Assembly: GCA_964510585.1 (NCBI GenBank)
Contig: CAZECW010000113.1
Location: 1-32,000, forward strand
Reading direction: 5' to 3'
Length of the DNA: 32,000 bases
DNA from: an uncultured archaeon
GTDB taxonomy: Archaea; Asgardarchaeota; Jordiarchaeia; Jordiarchaeales; Jordiarchaeaceae
A program made the position numbers and the translations under genes. This document shows, one piece after another, positions 647 to 6,852 of the stretch. How positions within the stretch are numbered: position 1 is the stretch's first letter; each line of letters begins with the position of its first letter. Below the pieces are notes generated by a model. It did no database searches. It was not told where the DNA came from and worked only from the letters and a program-made list of their open reading frames with translations.

Positions 647-1711
647 TTAGAGGTATTGTTTTTTTAGGTTTTGGATTTCTTCTGTTACGTTTTTTACTAT
701 TTGGGGAATTTTTTCTGGTTGGGGGATTTTGTCATAGTATTTTATTTCTGTGCCTAGTATTGTTGAGATGACTGCTGCGATGCTTAGGGGTAGGGCTAGG
801 AGGCTGTATCCTCCTTCCAGTATGAAGGTGGCTTTTCCTTTGCACACTTCTTTTGCTAACTGGAGGATTATTCGGGTTAGTTGGGCGTAATCTTCTGCCT
901 GTAGATTCATGTTTCCAACAGGATCGCTGTAATGTGTGTCAAAGCCGAAAGAAACCAATAACATTTCTGGTTTGTAGTCTCGGATTATTTCGGGAAAGAT
1001 TTGTTCGAAGGCCCAGAGGTAGGCGTTTCCCCACGTTCCCAGGGGCAGTGGCACATTAATATTGTATCCCTTTCCCTCTCCGCTACCTATTTCCTCCAGC
1101 CAGCCTCTTTCTATTGTTTCCATACCGTACTCGTGGAAGGATAAGCAGAAAACAGTGGGGTCGGAATAGAATATTTGGGACGTCCCATCACAAGCATGTG
1201 CATCAACATCCAATATTAGGACGCGTTTAACTCTTTTCTTTTCCTGAAGCCATTTGACCGCCACAGCGCAGTTATTAAAGTAGCACATTCCCTCCGAGTG
1301 CCCTATTCCAGCATGATGTCCCGGTGGACGGATGAGAGCGAAGGCTGTCTCCACCTCTCCCTCACAAACCTGCTGCACCGCCAGAATGGCTCCGCCAGCC
1401 GACAAGCAGGCAGCCTTAAAAGTATCCTTAACCACAAAACTGGAGGATCCAACTTCACCGTATCCCAGTACCGATAATTCGCTAACCACATCAAAGAGGT
1501 AGGGACTATGTATACGCACTATATCTTCTCTTGTTGCAGGTTTGCACTCAAAAATTTTCAGGTTTGGGTTCTTCAGTAGACCAGAGTTTTTTAGGTATTC
1601 ACGGGTAAGCTTTATGCGGCTCGGATTCTCGAACGCTTCTATCCACGGCCTGGTAACCTCGGGAACATGCATCTCCTCAAAGGCCCTATGGGAAACCAAT
1701 CCTAACTTCAT
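647..1711 (-). CDS. Histone deacetylase family protein (class II-like Zn-dependent amidohydrolase)
   Basis: Motifs RPPGHHA, GMCYFNN, LDVDAHACDGT, GFDTHYSDP and LEGGY are present, so the catalytic His-His, Zn ligands and Tyr are intact. Confidence 0.93.
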   Translation of the reverse strand: MKLGLVSHRAFEEMHVPEVTRPWIEAFENPSRIKLTREYLKNSGLLKNPNLKIFECKPATREDIVRIHSPYLFDVVSELSVLGYGEVGSSSFVVKDTFKAACLSAGGAILAVQQVCEGEVETAFALIRPPGHHAGIGHSEGMCYFNNCAVAVKWLQEKKRVKRVLILDVDAHACDGTSQIFYSDPTVFCLSFHEYGMETIERGWLEEIGSGEGKGYNINVPLPLGTWGNAYLWAFEQIFPEIIRDYKPEMLLVSFGFDTHYSDPVGNMNLQAEDYAQLTRIILQLAKEVCKGKATFILEGGYSLLALPLSIAAVISTILGTEIKYYDKIPQPEKIPQIVKNVTEEIQNLKKQYL

Positions 1712-2334: not shown

Positions 2335-2430
2335 AAAAATTCTTCCACTCCGCGAATATACGATGCATAAGTTTCATAAGTGAAGGACAACATATTTTCC
2401 TAATGTTATCTTAAAAACCCCACAATTTTT

Positions 2431-2447
2431 ACACAAAGTTTAATATA
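2431..2447 (+). promoter_or_regulatory. BRE/TATA promoter of tRNA-Arg(GCG)
   Basis: ACACAAAG-TTTAATATA ends about 28 nt upstream of the tRNA 5' end. Confidence 0.6.
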
Positions 2448-2474
2448 TTTCAATCCTAATACGATTAACAAGGT

Positions 2475-2618
2475 GGGGCTCTGGCCTAGTCAGGATATAC
2501 AGGCACCTGAAAGGGCGCAGAACCACAATTAACTGGCGCGTTAGCCTGCGGAGCCTGTGATCGCGGGAAATCCATCTATACGGTGGATTCGCGATTTCAA
2601 ATCCCGTGAGCCCCGCCA
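2475..2618 (+). tRNA. tRNA-Arg(GCG) with three non-canonical introns (about 20/21: 2497-2511; 29/30: 2521-2543; 53/54: 2568-2595); CCA encoded
   Basis: After removing the introns the cloverleaf is complete: acceptor GGGGCTC/GAGCCCC, D-stem GCCT/GGGC, anticodon stem CAGGC/GCCTG, loop CT-GCG-GA, T-arm GCGGG-TTCAAAT-CCCGT, then G73-CCA (78 nt mature). Each intron has a 4-bp central helix (CAGG/CCTG, GCGC/GCGT, CGCG/CGCG) flanked by 3-nt bulges. Confidence 0.9.
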
Positions 2619-2620
2619 AA

Positions 2621-2634
2621 GCCTCCCCCTTTTT
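2621..2634 (+). terminator. Pyrimidine/U-tract terminator candidate after the tRNA
   Basis: GCCTCCCCCTTTTT follows the CCA immediately, and the same core occurs after tpiA. Confidence 0.4.
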
Positions 2635-2719
2635 AAATGCGTTGCAGAAGGGTCACTGGTTTTAACCAGAGGGTGGGTACCATATTTAATTCCATGAAAG
2701 TAGGGAAAGATTTTTCTGC

Positions 2720-4615
2720 TTACATTTTTGAGGGGACTTGTATTCCTAGTATGTTTAGGGCGTTTTCTAGTGTTTGTTTTGCTGCGTATACTAGGGCGAG
2801 TCGAGCTTTTTTTGTTTCTTCGTCTTGTGCTGTGAGGACTGGTTGGGATTCGTAGAATTTGCTGAATTTTAGAGCGAGTTGATAGGTGTATTCTGCTAGT
2901 AGGTGGGGTTTTAGTTGTTCGGTTGCTGTTTTTACTATTTGTGGGAACAGGAATATGTGTTGTATTATGGTTTTTTCTTTTTCGTCGCCTAGTTTTTCGG
3001 GTTTTATTTTTGGTGTGGGTTTTTTGTCAGCTTTTTCCAGTATGCTGCGGGCTCTGACTACTGCATATTGTATGTATGGTCCTGTTTCTCCGTCAAAGTT
3101 TGTTACCTTGTCGAAGTCGAATATTATGGTTTGCTCGGTGCTGAATTTTATCAGCCAGAATCTTACTGCCCCTACCGCTATTATTTCGGCCAGTTCCCTC
3201 TTTTCAAGTTCAGGAAGGTCGGGCAGGTTTTTGCTCACTTGTAGGTATGCTCGGATGAATGTTTGGTTAATTACCGCATCTGCGTGATATCCCACCCAGT
3301 TGCCTTCTCTTCCCGAAAATCTCTCGCCGGCTAGTTTTACGTGTTTGTAGGAGAGGTGAATGGAGTTTTCAGCTTCCTCCCTGTAACCTAGGAGTTTGAT
3401 GCTGGATTTGAGGGCTTGCTGCAGGTATTCCTGCTCGTATCCTATTACGTTGATTACCTTTTTTGCCTTGGCAAATTCGTTGCTGTCTTTGCTTAGGGTG
3501 GGGGCGGTGGTCCACAGTATTTGTTTGTTAAACTGGGTGTTCCAGGGGCGGTACTTCATTTTTGTTTCTAGTTTTCCAAATTTCCATAACTGGTAGGCTA
3601 TGTCATGGGCTATGTAGGTTGGCACTCCAGTAGAGCGTATTATTACTTTGTCTGGGTTTTTCTTGTCTTTGAATTCTTCCAGTCTGCTGAACTTTGCCAC
3701 GAAGCAGCCTTTATATTCGCCCTCTGTTTCCCATACGAAGTTTTCGGATTTCTCGAGTTTTTTGAGGGTCTCTTCCCATATCTTTGACCTAGCAATGTCG
3801 CTCTCCCAAACCAATAGATTGTATGCTATGTTTGCTCTGGTTGTTGTTTCTAGGTTTGATTCAACGCACATTTCCGAGAGGTGTCTGCTGAAGTCAGCGA
3901 TTTCATTGTTTCCAATTTCCATGCTGCGCATCACTTCGTCTACTTCTTTTTCCAGTTCTGGTTTTTCTTTCAGGAGTTGGGCGGCCTTTGCGTATATGAG
4001 TCCATACCAGAAGTCTAGTTTGGTGTCTTTCTCTCTTGGAACTTCCAGGTGTATGTTGTTAAGGAAAGCCCAGACCAATACGCCGACCTGCCTTCCCAAA
4101 TCGTCAATGAAGTTCTGGACTTCAACATTCCACCCGCAGTTCCTGTATAGGTTTGCAACCACATCGCCCAAGACCGCGTTCCTTAAGTGGCCGATGTGTA
4201 GGGGTTTGGTGGGGTTAACAGCAGTATGTTCAACTAAGACCTTTTCCCCCTTCCCAAGCTGTAGTTTGCCGTAGTTTTCTCCCTCTGTAAAAACTTTGTT
4301 TATTATTATCTTTGTGAGTTCTAAATCGTCGAAGTAAAAGTTAACGTAGCCTGGGGGTGCAGCCTCTATTCTTCCAACGAGAGGTAGTTTTGTTACCTTC
4401 AGTTTTTCCGCCAGCTGCTGGGCGGTTTCTATGGGCTTACTTTTGAGGCTTTTTGAAATGCGGAAAGCAATTGTAGATGATAGGTTTCCCAGTTTGGGAT
4501 CTGGAGGTTGACTTATGCTTGAGGCAATTTCTTTTTTGGAAATATCCTTTACTCCCAATGATACAAGGCTATCATACGTAGCATCGACGATTTTTTCTAT
4601 CACTTCTGTGAGCAT
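2720..4615 (-). CDS. argS: Arginine--tRNA ligase (ArgRS)
   Basis: HIGH motif in NPTKPLHIGHLRN, N-terminal Add1 domain (PPDPKLG, PGYVNF), C-terminal DALR region (ETGPYIQYAVVRARSIL, ARLALV). The start is placed at ATG 4615 (MLTEVI); the ORF track extends to 4684. Confidence 0.97.
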   Translation of the reverse strand: MLTEVIEKIVDATYDSLVSLGVKDISKKEIASSISQPPDPKLGNLSSTIAFRISKSLKSKPIETAQQLAEKLKVTKLPLVGRIEAAPPGYVNFYFDDLELTKIIINKVFTEGENYGKLQLGKGEKVLVEHTAVNPTKPLHIGHLRNAVLGDVVANLYRNCGWNVEVQNFIDDLGRQVGVLVWAFLNNIHLEVPREKDTKLDFWYGLIYAKAAQLLKEKPELEKEVDEVMRSMEIGNNEIADFSRHLSEMCVESNLETTTRANIAYNLLVWESDIARSKIWEETLKKLEKSENFVWETEGEYKGCFVAKFSRLEEFKDKKNPDKVIIRSTGVPTYIAHDIAYQLWKFGKLETKMKYRPWNTQFNKQILWTTAPTLSKDSNEFAKAKKVINVIGYEQEYLQQALKSSIKLLGYREEAENSIHLSYKHVKLAGERFSGREGNWVGYHADAVINQTFIRAYLQVSKNLPDLPELEKRELAEIIAVGAVRFWLIKFSTEQTIIFDFDKVTNFDGETGPYIQYAVVRARSILEKADKKPTPKIKPEKLGDEKEKTIIQHIFLFPQIVKTATEQLKPHLLAEYTYQLALKFSKFYESQPVLTAQDEETKKARLALVYAAKQTLENALNILGIQVPSKM

Positions 4616-4718
4616 AAAATCTACCCACTTCAAACATCCAATAATCATGTTAATTAGTTTTCGAGACCGAAAACATTCAATCATGTTTTTATAAATTCTT
4701 CCGAGATGGAGAGGAAAG

Positions 4719-4841
4719 CGGGCCTGAAGGGAGTTTCAACATAGTCCAGAGGGAATACATTTTTGAACCCTTGGTATCCGGCTGACTCCATCTTTTAAAA
4801 GACGCCGGAGGCCGGCGTCTTATCCGCTAGACCACAGGCCC
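4719..4841 (-). tRNA. tRNA-Arg(CCG) with two introns (canonical 37/38: 4784-4804; T-loop 59/60: 4733-4761); CCA not encoded
   Basis: The minus strand gives acceptor GGGCCTG/CAGGCCC, D-stem GTCT/AGAC, anticodon stem CCGGC/GCCGG, loop CT-CCG-G|A and T-arm AAGGG-TTCAAA|T-CCCTT. BHB central helices are CTCC/GGAG and TTCA/TGAA, each with 3-nt bulges and an intronic stem. Confidence 0.92.
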
Positions 4842-4912
4842 GCGTTTTTTTTGTTTTTTCAAGTATTGTATGACTTGATTTGTGATTTTTAGATATTTTG
4901 GTTACTTTTGGG

Positions 4913-5428
4913 TTAGTTTGGTTGAATCCACCATGCTTGTCTTTTTCCCTTGTCTTTGGTGCGCTTAAACTGGATAATTCTCTTTCCGAATTTTTCTTCT
5001 GTTCTTCTTGCTATGCCTTTAATTCTTGTGAGGATTTGTCTCCGCTTTAGGCTGGTTACTGATTCTAGTTCTTTTGTGGTGACGCCTCCAGACTCTATGA
5101 GGTGGTTGATTATTAGTTTGTCTGTTTCATCGTTGCAAATGTGGTTTAGGAGCTGTTTTAGGTCTTCTTTGTAGAATTCGTTGTGGATGTTTGGTTCTTT
5201 CCTTTTTGTTACTCTTTCCAGTTTTATGATTCTGGATTTGAGTTGTTCTATTTCTTCCTTCAAATCTGTCTCTTCACTATTGGGTGTTTGCCTCAGTTTT
5301 TCTATTATTGCCTCCTTAACAAATTTGGAGCGTTTACCTCTCTCAATTTTTCTATTTAATTCCTCCAATAATTCTTTGGGAATTTTCACAGTTAATACCA
5401 CGGTTTTGCCTATATGGGTTCCCTCCAT
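4913..5428 (-). CDS. Putative DNA-binding regulator: N-terminal ribbon-helix-helix (CopG-like), coiled coil, C-terminal winged helix
   Basis: VVLTVKIPKELLEELNR...RSKFVKEAIIEKL matches the RHH pattern. LKEEIEQLKSRIIKLE is a heptad segment. GVTTKELESVTSLKRRQILTRIKGI followed by a beta-hairpin looks wHTH-like. ATG 5428 is preferred over 5446. Confidence 0.7.
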   Translation of the reverse strand: MEGTHIGKTVVLTVKIPKELLEELNRKIERGKRSKFVKEAIIEKLRQTPNSEETDLKEEIEQLKSRIIKLERVTKRKEPNIHNEFYKEDLKQLLNHICNDETDKLIINHLIESGGVTTKELESVTSLKRRQILTRIKGIARRTEEKFGKRIIQFKRTKDKGKRQAWWIQPN

Positions 5429-5548
5429 CAAAATTAAGCCGCACAAGTTGAGTCGATTAGGAGGTCTTTAACCATAGACTTGGACCCTTCTGCCCTGTTT
5501 TTATTTTACTATAGGTGTCTCTAACTGGTTATTTTTTTGTGGTATTAT

Positions 5549-5564: not shown

Positions 5565-5721
5565 ATTGGAATGTTATTTTGGCTCGGAGTGTTTACCCAC
5601 ATTTTTTGCTTGTTGGTTGCATTTTTAGTGAAAATCTTTGAAGGTTAGCCGTAAGGTTTTTGAACGTTATTTACAGTTTATCTGTTGGTTAAGAATAAAC
5701 TTCGGTGTTTCGGTGACAGCC

Positions 5722-6852
5722 ATGAGGGTTTACTCCACTCGTTTTGATAAGGCTAAGAGAATACTTGTAAGCGAAGAGGTGGATGCGCTACTATTATTGA
5801 ATCCTAAAAACATTTACTACCTTACCGGTTTTTGTAGTCATTCGTGGGATACTCCAAGCGCAGTCATATTTTCGGGAGAAAATGATGTTACACTCACTGT
5901 TTCACGCATAGAATTGGATAAGGCGGCTGAGAGTTCGTGGATTAATGATGTTCGATGCTATTATCCCTTCCCCCTCAAGATAGATGATAAAAACGAGAGG
6001 GTGGACAGCATTATTGATTCGATAGGCGCAATTATTGATGAGAAGGGTCTTAGTGAGAAAGTAATTGGTATTGAACTTTCCCAGCTCCCGGTTCTCGCAT
6101 TTGAGAGTCTAAAGAAAAAACTGCCTAAGGTGGGTTTTAAAGATGTCTCCAAAAATATTTGGGAAATGAGAATGTACAAGGACATTACTGAAGTAGAAAA
6201 TATTCAAAAGGCCATAGAAATTGCCGAGAAGGGTTTAAGAACTGCGATAGAAATTATCAGCCCTGGAACAACAGAGATACAAGTTGCTGTAGAAGTGGAG
6301 AGTGCCCTACGCAGGGCGGGTTCACAGAGAGCCCACTCCGAGAGCGTGGTGGTATCGGGAGCTAAATCCGCTTATCCCTATGCAATCGCGGGAAACAAAA
6401 AGATTGAAGAAAATGAGTTAGTACTCATAAATGTATCAGCCTCCTATAATGAATACTGCGCAAACGTTACAAGAACCATATTCACGGGTAGCCCCCACAA
6501 AAAACACAAAGAAATATTCGAAGCCGTAAAACAAGCTCTTAATAACGCGTTGCAATACGCTAAACCGGATGTTCCCCTAGGTCAACTGGATGCGGTTGCC
6601 AGAAGAGCAATAAAGGAAAAGGGTTATGAACCATTCTTCATACATCCCATCGGGCACGGAATAGGTTTGGAGCAGCGTGAGCCCCCCATAGTCTCATTAA
6701 ACAACTCGGAGAAAATAAAGGAAGGACTAATTCTAAACCTTGAACCAGCGATTTACATACCAGAGTTCGGTGGAGTAAGAATTGAAGACACCATACTAAT
6801 AACGGAGGAGGGCAGTCAGGTCTTAAACAAGCTTCCAGTAGAGACAATGTAA
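5722..6852 (+). CDS. M24 (Xaa-Pro aminopeptidase/creatinase-fold) protein with a degenerate metal site
   Basis: Creatinase-N-like start (LLLLNPKNIYYLTGF) and pita-bread motifs (VTRT, HPIGHGIGL, NLEPAIY, GVRIEDTILIT). Both Asp metal ligands read as Asn. The start is placed at ATG 5722; the ORF track extends to 5638. Confidence 0.9.
   Translation: MRVYSTRFDKAKRILVSEEVDALLLLNPKNIYYLTGFCSHSWDTPSAVIFSGENDVTLTVSRIELDKAAESSWINDVRCYYPFPLKIDDKNERVDSIIDSIGAIIDEKGLSEKVIGIELSQLPVLAFESLKKKLPKVGFKDVSKNIWEMRMYKDITEVENIQKAIEIAEKGLRTAIEIISPGTTEIQVAVEVESALRRAGSQRAHSESVVVSGAKSAYPYAIAGNKKIEENELVLINVSASYNEYCANVTRTIFTGSPHKKHKEIFEAVKQALNNALQYAKPDVPLGQLDAVARRAIKEKGYEPFFIHPIGHGIGLEQREPPIVSLNNSEKIKEGLILNLEPAIYIPEFGGVRIEDTILITEEGSQVLNKLPVETM

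What the first reader, a model, noticed from the sequence alone, without database searches (positions are those of the whole stretch)
2475..4841. argS is physically bracketed by two cognate tRNA-Arg genes
tRNA-Arg(CCG) lies co-oriented about 100 nt upstream of the argS start. tRNA-Arg(GCG) lies convergently about 100 nt past its stop. Both are hidden by introns. A synthetase flanked on both sides by its own substrates suggests a co-regulated arginine-decoding module. For example, argS mRNA could be released by RNase P, tRNase Z or EndA processing of a tRNA-argS transcript, tying ArgRS expression to tRNA maturation.
Basis: partly seen in the sequence, partly recalled or inferred. Interest (0 to 1): 0.75.

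Follow-up and report, generated by a model that had tools for sequence, protein, structure and literature searches.

The report
argS flanked by two tRNA-Arg genes
In this Asgard (Freyarchaeia) archaeon the gene for the enzyme that loads arginine onto tRNA really does sit between two intron-riddled arginine tRNA genes, and the layout is kept across related families and recurs elsewhere; but there is no evidence that the three genes are made as one transcript, and a control shows that non-matching tRNA-synthetase neighbours can be just as conserved.

Summary
Observation confirmed. argS (2720-4615, minus) lies 104 nt after a co-oriented tRNA-Arg(CCG) gene (4841-4719, two introns) and 101 nt before a convergent tRNA-Arg(GCG) gene (2475-2618, three introns). 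ARAGORN and Rfam miss both genes. In-silico splicing gives perfect cloverleafs, all five introns fit the strict bulge-helix-bulge (BHB) rule, and exons are conserved while introns diverge.

The genome is a Freyarchaeia MAG. The bracket is present in all 6 genomes of the genus. In the sister family the GCG gene is inverted. A third family has CCG plus TCG.

Of 33 tRNAs found within 800 nt of argS in 105 archaeal loci, 32 are tRNA-Arg. An ArgRS tree needs at least 3-4 changes to explain the linkage. This scan had already noted argS among tRNA-Arg genes in Undinarchaeota, on other DNA.

The co-transcription and processing idea is not supported. A conserved TATA-like box separates tRNA(CCG) from argS, orientations differ between lineages, and no RNA data exist.

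Cautions: valS keeps a non-cognate tRNA-Ala neighbour across five families. The flanking protein genes are also syntenic within the clade. The two tRNAs read only about 23% of arginine codons. Multi-intron tRNAs in this group are already published; the argS linkage was not found in the literature searched. Moderate interest.

The parts
2436..2449 (+). BRE/TATA-like box (AAAGTTTAATATAT) about 30 nt upstream of the tRNA-Arg(GCG) 5' end; inferred own promoter
   Evidence: Read; an A/T-rich box at the same place is kept in all six genomes of the genus. Function inferred, not shown.
2475..2618 (+). tRNA-Arg(GCG) gene with three BHB introns and encoded CCA. Exons 2475-2496, 2512-2520, 2544-2567, 2596-2615, then CCA 2616-2618. 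Introns 2497-2511 (15 nt, D-loop about 20/21), 2521-2543 (23 nt, 29/30), 2568-2595 (28 nt, 53/54).
   Evidence: Spliced product is a perfect cloverleaf called Arg(gcg) by ARAGORN. Recovered by the strict-BHB finder. Exons match the genome only here. Exons conserved and introns variable in 6 genomes. A 17-nt alternative for intron 1 exists, but the 15-nt version gives the same D-arm as the uninterrupted homologue in L011.
2630..2634 (+). T5 tract 12 nt after the CCA end; candidate archaeal terminator of the tRNA-Arg(GCG) gene
   Evidence: Sequence read; inference from the known oligo-T termination of archaeal RNA polymerase (own knowledge).
2720..4615 (-). argS, arginine--tRNA ligase, 631 aa from the conserved ATG at 4615
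   Evidence: NCBIfam NF002447 592 bits, cut-off 460. The ATG at 4615 (ATGCTC) is conserved in the genus, while the upstream ATG at 4684 is not. Orthologues found in 39 of 41 relatives.
4686..4695 (-). TATA-like box (TTTATAAAAA) between tRNA-Arg(CCG) and argS, about 76 nt upstream of the argS ATG; inferred argS promoter
   Evidence: Read. Nearly invariant in L001-L004, and kept as GATAAAA[A/G]C in L005/L006 although the rest of the spacer has diverged. A/T-rich boxes sit just after the tRNA in L007-L010. Function inferred.
4719..4841 (-). tRNA-Arg(CCG) gene with two BHB introns and no encoded CCA. Exons 4841-4805, 4783-4762, 4732-4719. Introns 4804-4784 (21 nt, canonical 37/38) and 4761-4733 (29 nt, T-loop 59/60).
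   Evidence: Exons nearly invariant and both introns divergent, with compensatory changes in the intron hairpin, across six genomes.
4885..4899 (-). Conserved A/T-rich box (AAAATATCTAAAAAT) about 45-60 nt upstream of the tRNA-Arg(CCG) 5' end; candidate promoter of the tRNA gene
   Evidence: Read; conserved in all six genomes of the genus. Function inferred.
4913..5446 (-). Upstream co-oriented 177-aa gene that travels with the tRNA(CCG)-argS block: weak ribbon-helix-helix match plus a helix-turn-helix-like C-terminus
   Evidence: Pfam RHH_1 18.4 bits, below the 20.5 cut-off. tblastx hits at the same relative position in families f1, f2 and f13. Atlas: uncharacterised archaeal family.

Best explanation
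This is a real, inherited gene neighbourhood, most likely made of three separate transcription units. argS lies between two single-copy, intron-interrupted genes for its own substrates: tRNA-Arg(CCG) upstream on the same strand and tRNA-Arg(GCG) downstream, convergent.

Inferred workings, not shown. Each tRNA gene is transcribed from its own A/T-rich promoter. The precursors are cut at five strict bulge-helix-bulge motifs by the archaeal splicing endonuclease and re-joined. Their ends are trimmed by RNase P and tRNase Z, and CCA is added to the CCG species only. argS is transcribed from its own TATA-like box about 76 nt upstream of its ATG, possibly with some read-through from the tRNA(CCG) gene, because only short T tracts lie between them.

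The block (small DNA-binding-like gene, tRNA-CCG, argS, second tRNA-Arg) goes back at least to the common ancestor of three Asgard families. Cognate tRNA-Arg/argS linkage also occurs in other archaeal lineages with different anticodons and orientations. I therefore think proximity itself is weakly selected, through shared local regulation, dosage or co-inheritance of a matched enzyme-substrate pair, rather than a shared transcript.
For: - Both tRNAs are real.
- All five introns obey the strict BHB rule (4-bp helix, two 3-nt bulges, cut after the second bulge base).
- Exons are conserved and introns divergent across the genus.
- Bracket present in 6 of 6 genomes of the genus. In sister family f2, tRNA-CCG is upstream in 4 of 4, and tRNA-GCG is downstream on the argS strand in 3 of 3 with sequence available. 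In family f13, CCG is upstream and TCG downstream in 3 of 3.
- Other lineages: f12 has TCG divergent upstream in 12 of 12; L017 has GCG upstream and CCG downstream; a Thermoproteota MAG (L092) has GCG downstream.
- 32 of 33 tRNAs within 800 nt of argS in 105 archaeal loci are Arg.
- The ArgRS tree needs 4 changes (3 forced by well-supported branches) against a mean of 23 in label shuffles.
- If such events were random with respect to amino acid, 4 of 5 cognate has P = 6e-4, and 3 of 4 has P = 5e-3.
- In this genome none of 20 other synthetase genes has a cognate tRNA within about 450 nt.
- Separate promoters are suggested by conserved A/T boxes before each gene.
Against: - No transcript data, so promoters, terminators and read-through are all inferred.
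- Conservation alone is weak evidence. valS keeps a non-cognate tRNA-Ala(CGC) neighbour in at least five Asgard families, and thrS has a tRNA-Arg(GCG) neighbour in Odin genomes.
- Within the Frey/Jord/f13 clade the flanking protein genes are syntenic too, so that clade counts as one event.
- The 'independent' events could instead be differential loss from one old tRNA-Arg cluster beside argS. The ArgRS tree is a quick LG+G4 gene tree with long branches, not a species tree.
- The two tRNAs serve minor codons only: CGG 5.9%, CGC+CGU 16.9%.
- My finder misses tRNAs with long variable arms (Leu, Ser), non-strict BHB introns or more than one mismatch. In the intron-rich clade its fast version found about 60% of the genes visible by alignment, so 'none found' in other lineages is soft.
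Confidence: 0.5

Rival explanations
1. Frozen accident. One ancient chance juxtaposition of a tRNA-Arg gene, later duplicated locally into isoacceptors, with argS has simply been retained by slow gene-order decay. There is no functional coupling.
For: - The non-cognate valS/tRNA-Ala(CGC) adjacency is conserved across five families, and thrS/tRNA-Arg in Odin.
- Flanking protein genes are conserved along with the block in f1, f2 and f13.
- In L011 the two flanking tRNA-Arg genes are near-identical and differ at anticodon position 34, as expected from local duplication.
- Many lineages with the same ArgRS type lack the linkage (27 Thor-type f7 rows, plus Odin, f18, f20, f21, f23, f25).
Against: - 32 of 33 tRNAs next to argS are cognate.
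- At least 3 changes are forced on the ArgRS tree, with different anticodons and orientations in each group.
- The downstream tRNA was inverted between sister families yet stayed adjacent.
- A Thermoproteota case exists, and earlier unchecked notes of this scan report the same in Undinarchaeota.
Confidence: 0.3
2. tRNA-Arg(CCG) and argS form one primary transcript, and RNase P, tRNase Z and EndA processing of the tRNA releases the argS mRNA, tying ArgRS expression to tRNA maturation.
For: - Same strand and only 104 nt apart in the genus, 57-87 nt in family f2.
- No T tract of 5 or more between the tRNA and argS in this genome (longest T3-T4), so read-through is possible.
- In f2 the downstream tRNA(GCG) is also on the argS strand, 66-81 nt after the stop.
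Against: - A conserved TATA-like box lies between the tRNA and argS.
- T4-T6 tracts follow the tRNA in f2.
- Spacing grows to 255-780 nt in f13. The tRNA is divergent in f12, and convergent in this genus (GCG) and in L017.
- No transcript evidence of any kind.
Confidence: 0.15
3. Co-transfer cassette. argS and a matched tRNA-Arg move together by horizontal transfer, as tRNA-Pyl and PylRS do, and the adjacency is a relic of acquisition.
For: Asgard genomes carry two ArgRS types: 73 of 161 sampled genomes have this type at E <= 1e-60. On the ArgRS tree, Hadarchaeota/Thermococcus and Micrarchaeota sequences nest among the Asgard ones, which suggests transfers.
Against: The tRNA genes carry lineage-typical introns, and within the clade they are orthologous in sequence and position. 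The non-Asgard relatives on the tree lack an adjacent tRNA-Arg. No mobile-element genes were seen in the flanks I looked at.
Confidence: 0.07

Closest known systems
Multi-intron tRNA genes of Freyarchaeia/Atabeyarchaeia (Valentin-Alvarado et al. 2024, PMC11291895) and the Asgard tRNA-intron census preprint (bioRxiv 10.64898/2026.10.13.758758)
   Same: Same organism group and same phenomenon. The 2024 paper reports that 92-95% of tRNA genes carry introns, often at non-canonical positions, and that over half have several. The two genes here, with introns at 20/21, 29/30, 37/38, 53/54 and 59/60, are typical examples.
   Different: Neither text mentions synthetase genes or argS: 0 occurrences of 'synthetase' and 'argS' in the preprint, and no relevant passage in the 2024 paper. 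The linkage to argS is the new part.
pylT-pylS (tRNA-Pyl gene next to the pyrrolysyl-tRNA synthetase gene); own knowledge, not checked here
   Same: A synthetase gene lies directly beside the gene for its own tRNA, conserved across lineages.
   Different: pylTS is a dedicated, horizontally mobile orthogonal pair for a 22nd amino acid and is co-transcribed with pylBCD. Here a canonical housekeeping synthetase sits with two of its several isoacceptors, with probable separate promoters and variable orientation.
Bacterial tRNA-mRNA operons such as E. coli thrU-tyrU-glyT-thrT-tufB; own knowledge, not checked here
   Same: A tRNA gene lies just upstream of, and co-oriented with, a translation-factor gene.
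   Different: In tufB the tRNAs are not cognate to anything and co-transcription is experimentally shown. Here co-transcription is untested, and a conserved TATA-like box lies between the genes.
argS flanked by four tRNA-Arg isoacceptors in Undinarchaeota
   Same: Same enzyme and same cognate tRNAs, several hidden by introns, with conservation across a clade.
   Different: Different phylum (DPANN). There all four isoacceptors are reported to cluster with argS, on one strand in at least one of the notes (e1-2772123). Here only the two minor-codon isoacceptors are present, one of them convergent.

Membership tests
Archaeal intron-containing tRNA gene (BHB introns) | Removing the intervening sequences yields a canonical cloverleaf with conserved U8, G18G19, U33, T-loop and a 7-bp acceptor stem | tested here: met
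   ARAGORN on the spliced sequences returns Arg(ccg) of 74 nt and Arg(gcg) of 78 nt including CCA, with no stem mismatches. The finder's solutions have 0 mismatches.
Archaeal intron-containing tRNA gene (BHB introns) | Each exon-intron junction lies in a bulge-helix-bulge motif (4-bp helix between two 3-nt bulges) | tested here: met
   All five introns are accepted by the strict rule coded in the finder, as type I geometry. The same solutions come from the rewritten finder.
Archaeal intron-containing tRNA gene (BHB introns) | Orthologues conserve the exons while the introns diverge or come and go | tested here: met
   Alignments of six genomes. L005 has a fourth intron. L007 has four introns at partly different sites.
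Archaeal intron-containing tRNA gene (BHB introns) | The precursor is transcribed and spliced in vivo | not testable with these tools
   No run on record as RNA holds the stretch; the runs laid were contigs that still contain the introns.
tRNA-Arg identity | Anticodon NCG with C35 and G36, plus A20 in the D-loop (ArgRS identity elements; own knowledge) | tested here: met
   The anticodon loops read CUCCGGA and CUGCGGA. The D-loops AGCGGAUA and AGUCAGGAUA carry A directly after G18G19 (mature sequences).
Arginine--tRNA ligase (NCBIfam NF002447 / TIGR00456) | Whole-protein score above the curated cut-off | tested here: met
   592.3 bits against 460, and 421.1 against 261.65.
tRNA-mRNA co-transcription unit (tufB-operon type) | Same strand, with no promoter or terminator between the tRNA and the downstream ORF | tested here: inconclusive
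   Same strand and 104 nt apart, with only T3-T4 tracts. But a TATA-like box conserved in the genus lies at 4695-4686.
tRNA-mRNA co-transcription unit (tufB-operon type) | Co-orientation is kept wherever the linkage is kept | tested here: not met
   The linked tRNA is convergent (this genus, GCG; L017, CCG), divergent (f12, TCG, 12 of 12) or co-oriented (f2, f13).
tRNA-mRNA co-transcription unit (tufB-operon type) | Transcripts span the tRNA-ORF junction | not testable with these tools
   No RNA holder listed.
Conserved cognate synthetase-tRNA gene neighbourhood | Adjacency is kept in relatives beyond the genus | tested here: met
   Families f1, f2 and f13, 13 of 13 rows.
Conserved cognate synthetase-tRNA gene neighbourhood | Recurrence in separate lineages, and enrichment of cognate over non-cognate tRNAs | tested here: met
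   32 of 33 neighbouring tRNAs are Arg, and at least 3-4 changes are needed on the ArgRS tree. Caveat: this is a gene tree, and an ancestral cluster followed by losses is not excluded.
Conserved cognate synthetase-tRNA gene neighbourhood | Conservation exceeds what non-cognate tRNA/synthetase pairs show | tested here: not met
   valS/tRNA-Ala(CGC) is conserved in at least 5 families, and thrS/tRNA-Arg(GCG) in Odin genomes.

The most novel reading that the evidence does not exclude
Keeping argS beside tRNA-Arg genes is a recurrent, selected trait of archaea: three Asgard groups, a Thermoproteota MAG and, per earlier notes of this scan, Undinarchaeota. It might reflect a peculiarity of ArgRS, which needs bound tRNA even to activate arginine (own knowledge). 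One possible mechanism is feedback in which ArgRS binds the nascent pre-tRNA on a read-through tRNA(CCG)-argS transcript and sets its own synthesis, an archaeal counterpart of the tRNA-mimic operators of bacterial thrS.
Probability: 0.15. Interest if true: 0.8.

Novelty: new variant of a known kind. Interest (0 to 1): 0.5.

Why it matters
Synthetase genes of the 20 standard amino acids are not generally known to be linked to the genes of their own tRNAs; the textbook case is the special pylT-pylS pair. A housekeeping synthetase that repeatedly ends up beside its own tRNA genes in several archaeal lineages, including relatives of the eukaryotic ancestor, would point to an unrecognised constraint on how enzyme and substrate supply are coordinated, or co-inherited, in archaea.

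There is also a practical point. Standard tools either miss these genes or give them the wrong identity. ARAGORN called the homologous genes Ile, Val, Ser, Trp or SeC, so such neighbourhoods are invisible in routine annotation. The control result, a conserved but non-cognate valS/tRNA-Ala pair, warns against reading function from conserved adjacency alone.

Tried and rejected
- ARAGORN with default and intron options, and Rfam at gathering and at E <= 10: no tRNA in the unspliced sequence. At a lowered ARAGORN threshold the GCG gene was miscalled Ile(gat).
- Expression: no RNA holder listed for window 2400-4950. The four runs laid, two of them labelled metatranscriptomic but probably DNA, are contigs that still contain the introns and come mostly from a 90-95% identical relative. 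They say nothing about transcripts, starts, ends or splicing.
- The sigma-70 promoter and intrinsic-terminator scan is not applicable to an archaeon and was not used.
- The first versions of my finder were too slow or too permissive. A genome-wide tRNA census of the 3.8-Mb genome was not feasible in the time available, so the number of tRNA-Arg genes (assumed 5 of about 46) and the location of the AGA/AGG tRNAs are not established. Only contig C113 was scanned whole.
- Literature searches for argS/tRNA-Arg or cognate tRNA-synthetase gene linkage returned nothing relevant. Subscription journals are not covered.
That f13 is Atabeyarchaeia and f2 Jordarchaeaceae is my guess only.
- The Atlas look-up of the upstream 177-aa gene gave only uncharacterised archaeal clusters.
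- L040's tRNA-Pro(CGG), whose anticodon is the reverse complement of CCG, was considered as a possible mis-stranded tRNA-Arg. It was rejected because the finder accepts it only on the strand that reads Pro.
Full report
**1. What is there**

The window comes from a 3.78-Mb, 217-contig genome. Its ArgRS is 82% identical to that of the complete chromosome CP147778.1, 'Candidatus Freyarchaeota archaeon SRVP19_Freyarchaeia-1', so this is an Asgard archaeon of the Freyarchaeia group. DNA runs that hold the stretch are hot-spring metagenomes.

The minus-strand ORF 2720-4684 is arginine--tRNA ligase: NCBIfam NF002447 at 592 bits against a cut-off of 460. Alignment of six genomes of the genus shows that the conserved start is the ATG at 4615. 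The ATG at 4684 is not conserved.

**2. The two tRNA genes**

ARAGORN and Rfam see nothing in the raw sequence. By eye, both flanks contain acceptor, D, anticodon and T elements interrupted by extra sequence.

- Removing two segments upstream (21 and 29 nt) and three downstream (15, 23 and 28 nt) gives perfect cloverleafs, which ARAGORN calls tRNA-Arg(CCG) and tRNA-Arg(GCG).
- Deleting every possible single segment from the upstream region gave 60 tRNA calls out of 5423 variants, all Arg(CCG).
- I then wrote a finder that allows a jump only where a strict archaeal bulge-helix-bulge (BHB) motif exists: a 4-bp helix flanked by two 3-nt bulges, cut after the second bulge base. It also demands the cloverleaf and the invariant bases, and every solution is validated with ARAGORN.
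- The finder recovers both genes with exactly those introns. On the whole 64-kb contig, both strands, it calls these two genes and nothing else. That run serves as a false-positive control.
- Both genes are single copy.
- Across the genus the exons are nearly invariant while the introns diverge, with compensatory changes in the intron hairpins. This independently supports the exon-intron boundaries.

Intron positions are 37/38 and 59/60 in the CCG gene, and about 20/21, 29/30 and 53/54 in the GCG gene. The coordinates match the finding: 4841-4719 (minus strand) and 2475-2618 (plus strand). The gaps to argS are 104 nt and 101 nt.

Heavily interrupted tRNA genes in Freyarchaeia are already published: 92-95% of tRNA genes have introns and over half have several (PMC11291895). 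There is also a 2026 preprint census of Asgard tRNA introns. That part of the finding is known biology.

**3. Conservation of the bracket**

I fetched argS loci from 40 relatives, 80 named genomes and 40 further Asgard genomes.

| Group | Arrangement | Genomes |
|---|---|---|
| Own genus (f1) | CCG upstream, same strand, 104-122 nt; GCG downstream, convergent, 16-108 nt | 6 of 6 |
| Sister family of the same order (f2) | CCG upstream, same strand; GCG downstream but on the argS strand, 66-81 nt past the stop, so inverted relative to this genus | 4 of 4; 3 of 3 with sequence |
| Family f13 | CCG upstream (255-780 nt) and TCG downstream (47 to about 1400 nt), both co-oriented | 3 of 3 |
| Family f12 | TCG upstream, divergent, 157-228 nt | 12 of 12 |
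| L017 (f10) | GCG upstream, same strand; CCG downstream, convergent; the mirror of the window | single locus |
| Thermoproteota MAG (L092) | GCG 57 nt downstream, same strand | single locus |

In L011 (f13) the two flanking tRNA genes are near-identical apart from anticodon position 34.

In total, 33 tRNAs were found within 800 nt of argS in 105 archaeal loci. Of these, 32 are tRNA-Arg, and the exception is a tRNA-Pro in a Micrarchaeota locus. None was found next to argS in 27 f7 (Thor-type) rows, in Odin, in f18, f20, f21, f23, f25 or f11, or in Hadarchaeota, Thermococcus or Thaumarchaeota loci.

On an ArgRS tree (IQ-TREE quick, LG+G4, 87 rows) the linkage needs four changes, three of them forced by well-supported branches. 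Label shuffles give a mean of 23.

An earlier look-up shows that this scan had already noted argS flanked by four tRNA-Arg genes across Undinarchaeota, on other DNA. I did not check those notes.

**4. Is the linkage specific to arginine, and does conservation mean function?**

In this genome I located 20 other synthetase genes through their Pfam catalytic domains and scanned about 450 nt on each side. None has a cognate tRNA neighbour. The only tRNA found is tRNA-Ala(CGC), next to valS.

As matched controls I ran the same ±800 nt scan on alaS, thrS and valS loci of the same relatives, 30 loci each:

- alaS has no tRNA neighbour.
- thrS has tRNA-Arg(GCG) upstream in three Odin genomes.
- valS has tRNA-Ala(CGC), sometimes with tRNA-Ile(GAU), next to it in at least five families.

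A non-cognate tRNA-synthetase adjacency can therefore be as widely conserved as the cognate one. Within the Frey/Jord/f13 clade the flanking protein genes are also syntenic, so that clade counts as a single inherited event.

What remains unusual for argS is the repeated cognate identity. If adjacency events were random with respect to amino acid (5 of about 46 tRNA genes assumed to be Arg), four cognate of five events has P = 6e-4, and the conservative three of four has P = 5e-3. This rests on a gene tree and on my count of events. One old tRNA-Arg cluster followed by differential loss would reduce the number of events.

**5. How it probably works**

Evidence against an obligatory tRNA-argS co-transcript:

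- A TATA-like box (TTTATAAAAA, 4695-4686) lies between tRNA(CCG) and argS and is conserved in the genus even where the rest of the spacer has diverged.
- A/T-rich boxes and T4-T6 tracts follow the tRNA in the sister family.
- The downstream tRNA is convergent here and has its own conserved BRE/TATA-like box (2436-2449) and a T5 tract (2630-2634).
- Orientation and spacing differ among lineages.

In favour of some read-through: only T3-T4 tracts separate tRNA(CCG) from argS in this genome.

No RNA data are available, so all of this is inference.

The two tRNAs read CGG (5.9% of arginine codons in ORFs of 300 aa or more) and CGC/CGU (16.9%). argS itself uses 5 CGC and no CGG. The tRNAs for the major AGA/AGG codons were not found on this contig. 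The locus is therefore not a complete arginine-decoding set.

**6. Verdict**

The claim of conserved synteny is confirmed, and the linkage extends to other lineages.

The mechanistic proposal, argS mRNA released by tRNA processing, is unsupported and rather disfavoured. My best reading is three separate transcription units in an inherited neighbourhood, with moderate statistical evidence that cognate proximity is favoured. A frozen accident remains a serious rival.

The intron-rich tRNAs are known. The argS/tRNA-Arg linkage was not found in the literature I could search.

**Limitations**

- The finder cannot see tRNAs with long variable arms or non-strict BHB introns. Its fast version found about 60% of the genes visible by alignment in the intron-rich clade.
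- The families are anonymous codes.
- The tree is an ArgRS gene tree with some long branches.

Noticed in passing
L214-L243 (valS loci); in the own genome, contig C140 about 34445-34541 (minus strand), next to valS at C140:34738-37191: A non-cognate tRNA-Ala(CGC) gene, sometimes followed by tRNA-Ile(GAU), lies within 58-460 nt of valS in at least five Asgard families (f1, f3, f8, f12, f13): upstream in the own genus and downstream co-oriented elsewhere; in one genus-mate (L219) the upstream neighbour is tRNA-Ala(UGC). In the own genome the same tRNA-Ala lies 4.4 kb from alaS on the same strand.
   Followed up: partly
L209, L211, L212 (thrS loci of the three Odin-type f3 genomes): tRNA-Arg(GCG) with two introns sits 393-582 nt upstream of thrS, co-oriented. 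In these genomes no tRNA-Arg was found next to argS.
   Followed up: no
L011:1091-1178 and L011:3368-3455 (family f13): The two tRNA-Arg genes flanking argS are direct repeats with near-identical mature sequences that differ at anticodon position 34 (CCG versus UCG), each with a 13-nt intron. This suggests recent duplication or gene conversion across argS, or an anticodon shift. ARAGORN miscalls them Trp and SeC.
   Followed up: partly
L005 (oriented with argS on +, 3412-3578) and L007 (oriented, about 3465-3615), orthologues of the window's tRNA-Arg(GCG): Intron number and position differ between orthologues. L005 has a fourth intron near the T-stem/acceptor junction. L007 has four introns (about 20/21, 29/30, 50/51, 60/61) against three in the window. 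This is direct evidence of intron turnover in one orthologous gene.
   Followed up: partly
window 4913-5446 (minus strand): The 177-aa protein upstream of tRNA(CCG) has a sub-threshold ribbon-helix-helix match, a coiled-coil-like middle and a helix-turn-helix-like C-terminus. It keeps its position next to the tRNA(CCG)-argS block in families f1, f2 and f13. It may be a regulator; its function is unknown.
   Followed up: partly
(phylum sample): Asgard genomes fall into two ArgRS types. 73 of 161 sampled genomes have this type at E <= 1e-60. The others (for example families f4, f5, f9, f14-f17) match it only weakly, at about 1e-30 and in pieces. On the ArgRS tree, Hadarchaeota/Thermococcus and Micrarchaeota sequences nest among the Asgard ones.
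   Followed up: no
window 647-1711 (minus strand) and 5638-6852 (plus strand): Neighbouring genes: a histone-deacetylase-family protein (Pfam PF00850, 272 bits), which keeps its place downstream of tRNA(GCG) in family f2, and an M24 Xaa-Pro peptidase homologue (PF00557 plus Creatinase_N).
   Followed up: no
records 6 and 18 laid on window 4761-4838: In two hot-spring metagenomes, another contig matches exon 1, intron 1 and exon 2 of the tRNA-Arg(CCG) gene (2-7 mismatches in 40-78 nt) but continues differently beyond 4761. This is probably a related strain or a paralogous tRNA gene with a different second intron.
   Followed up: no
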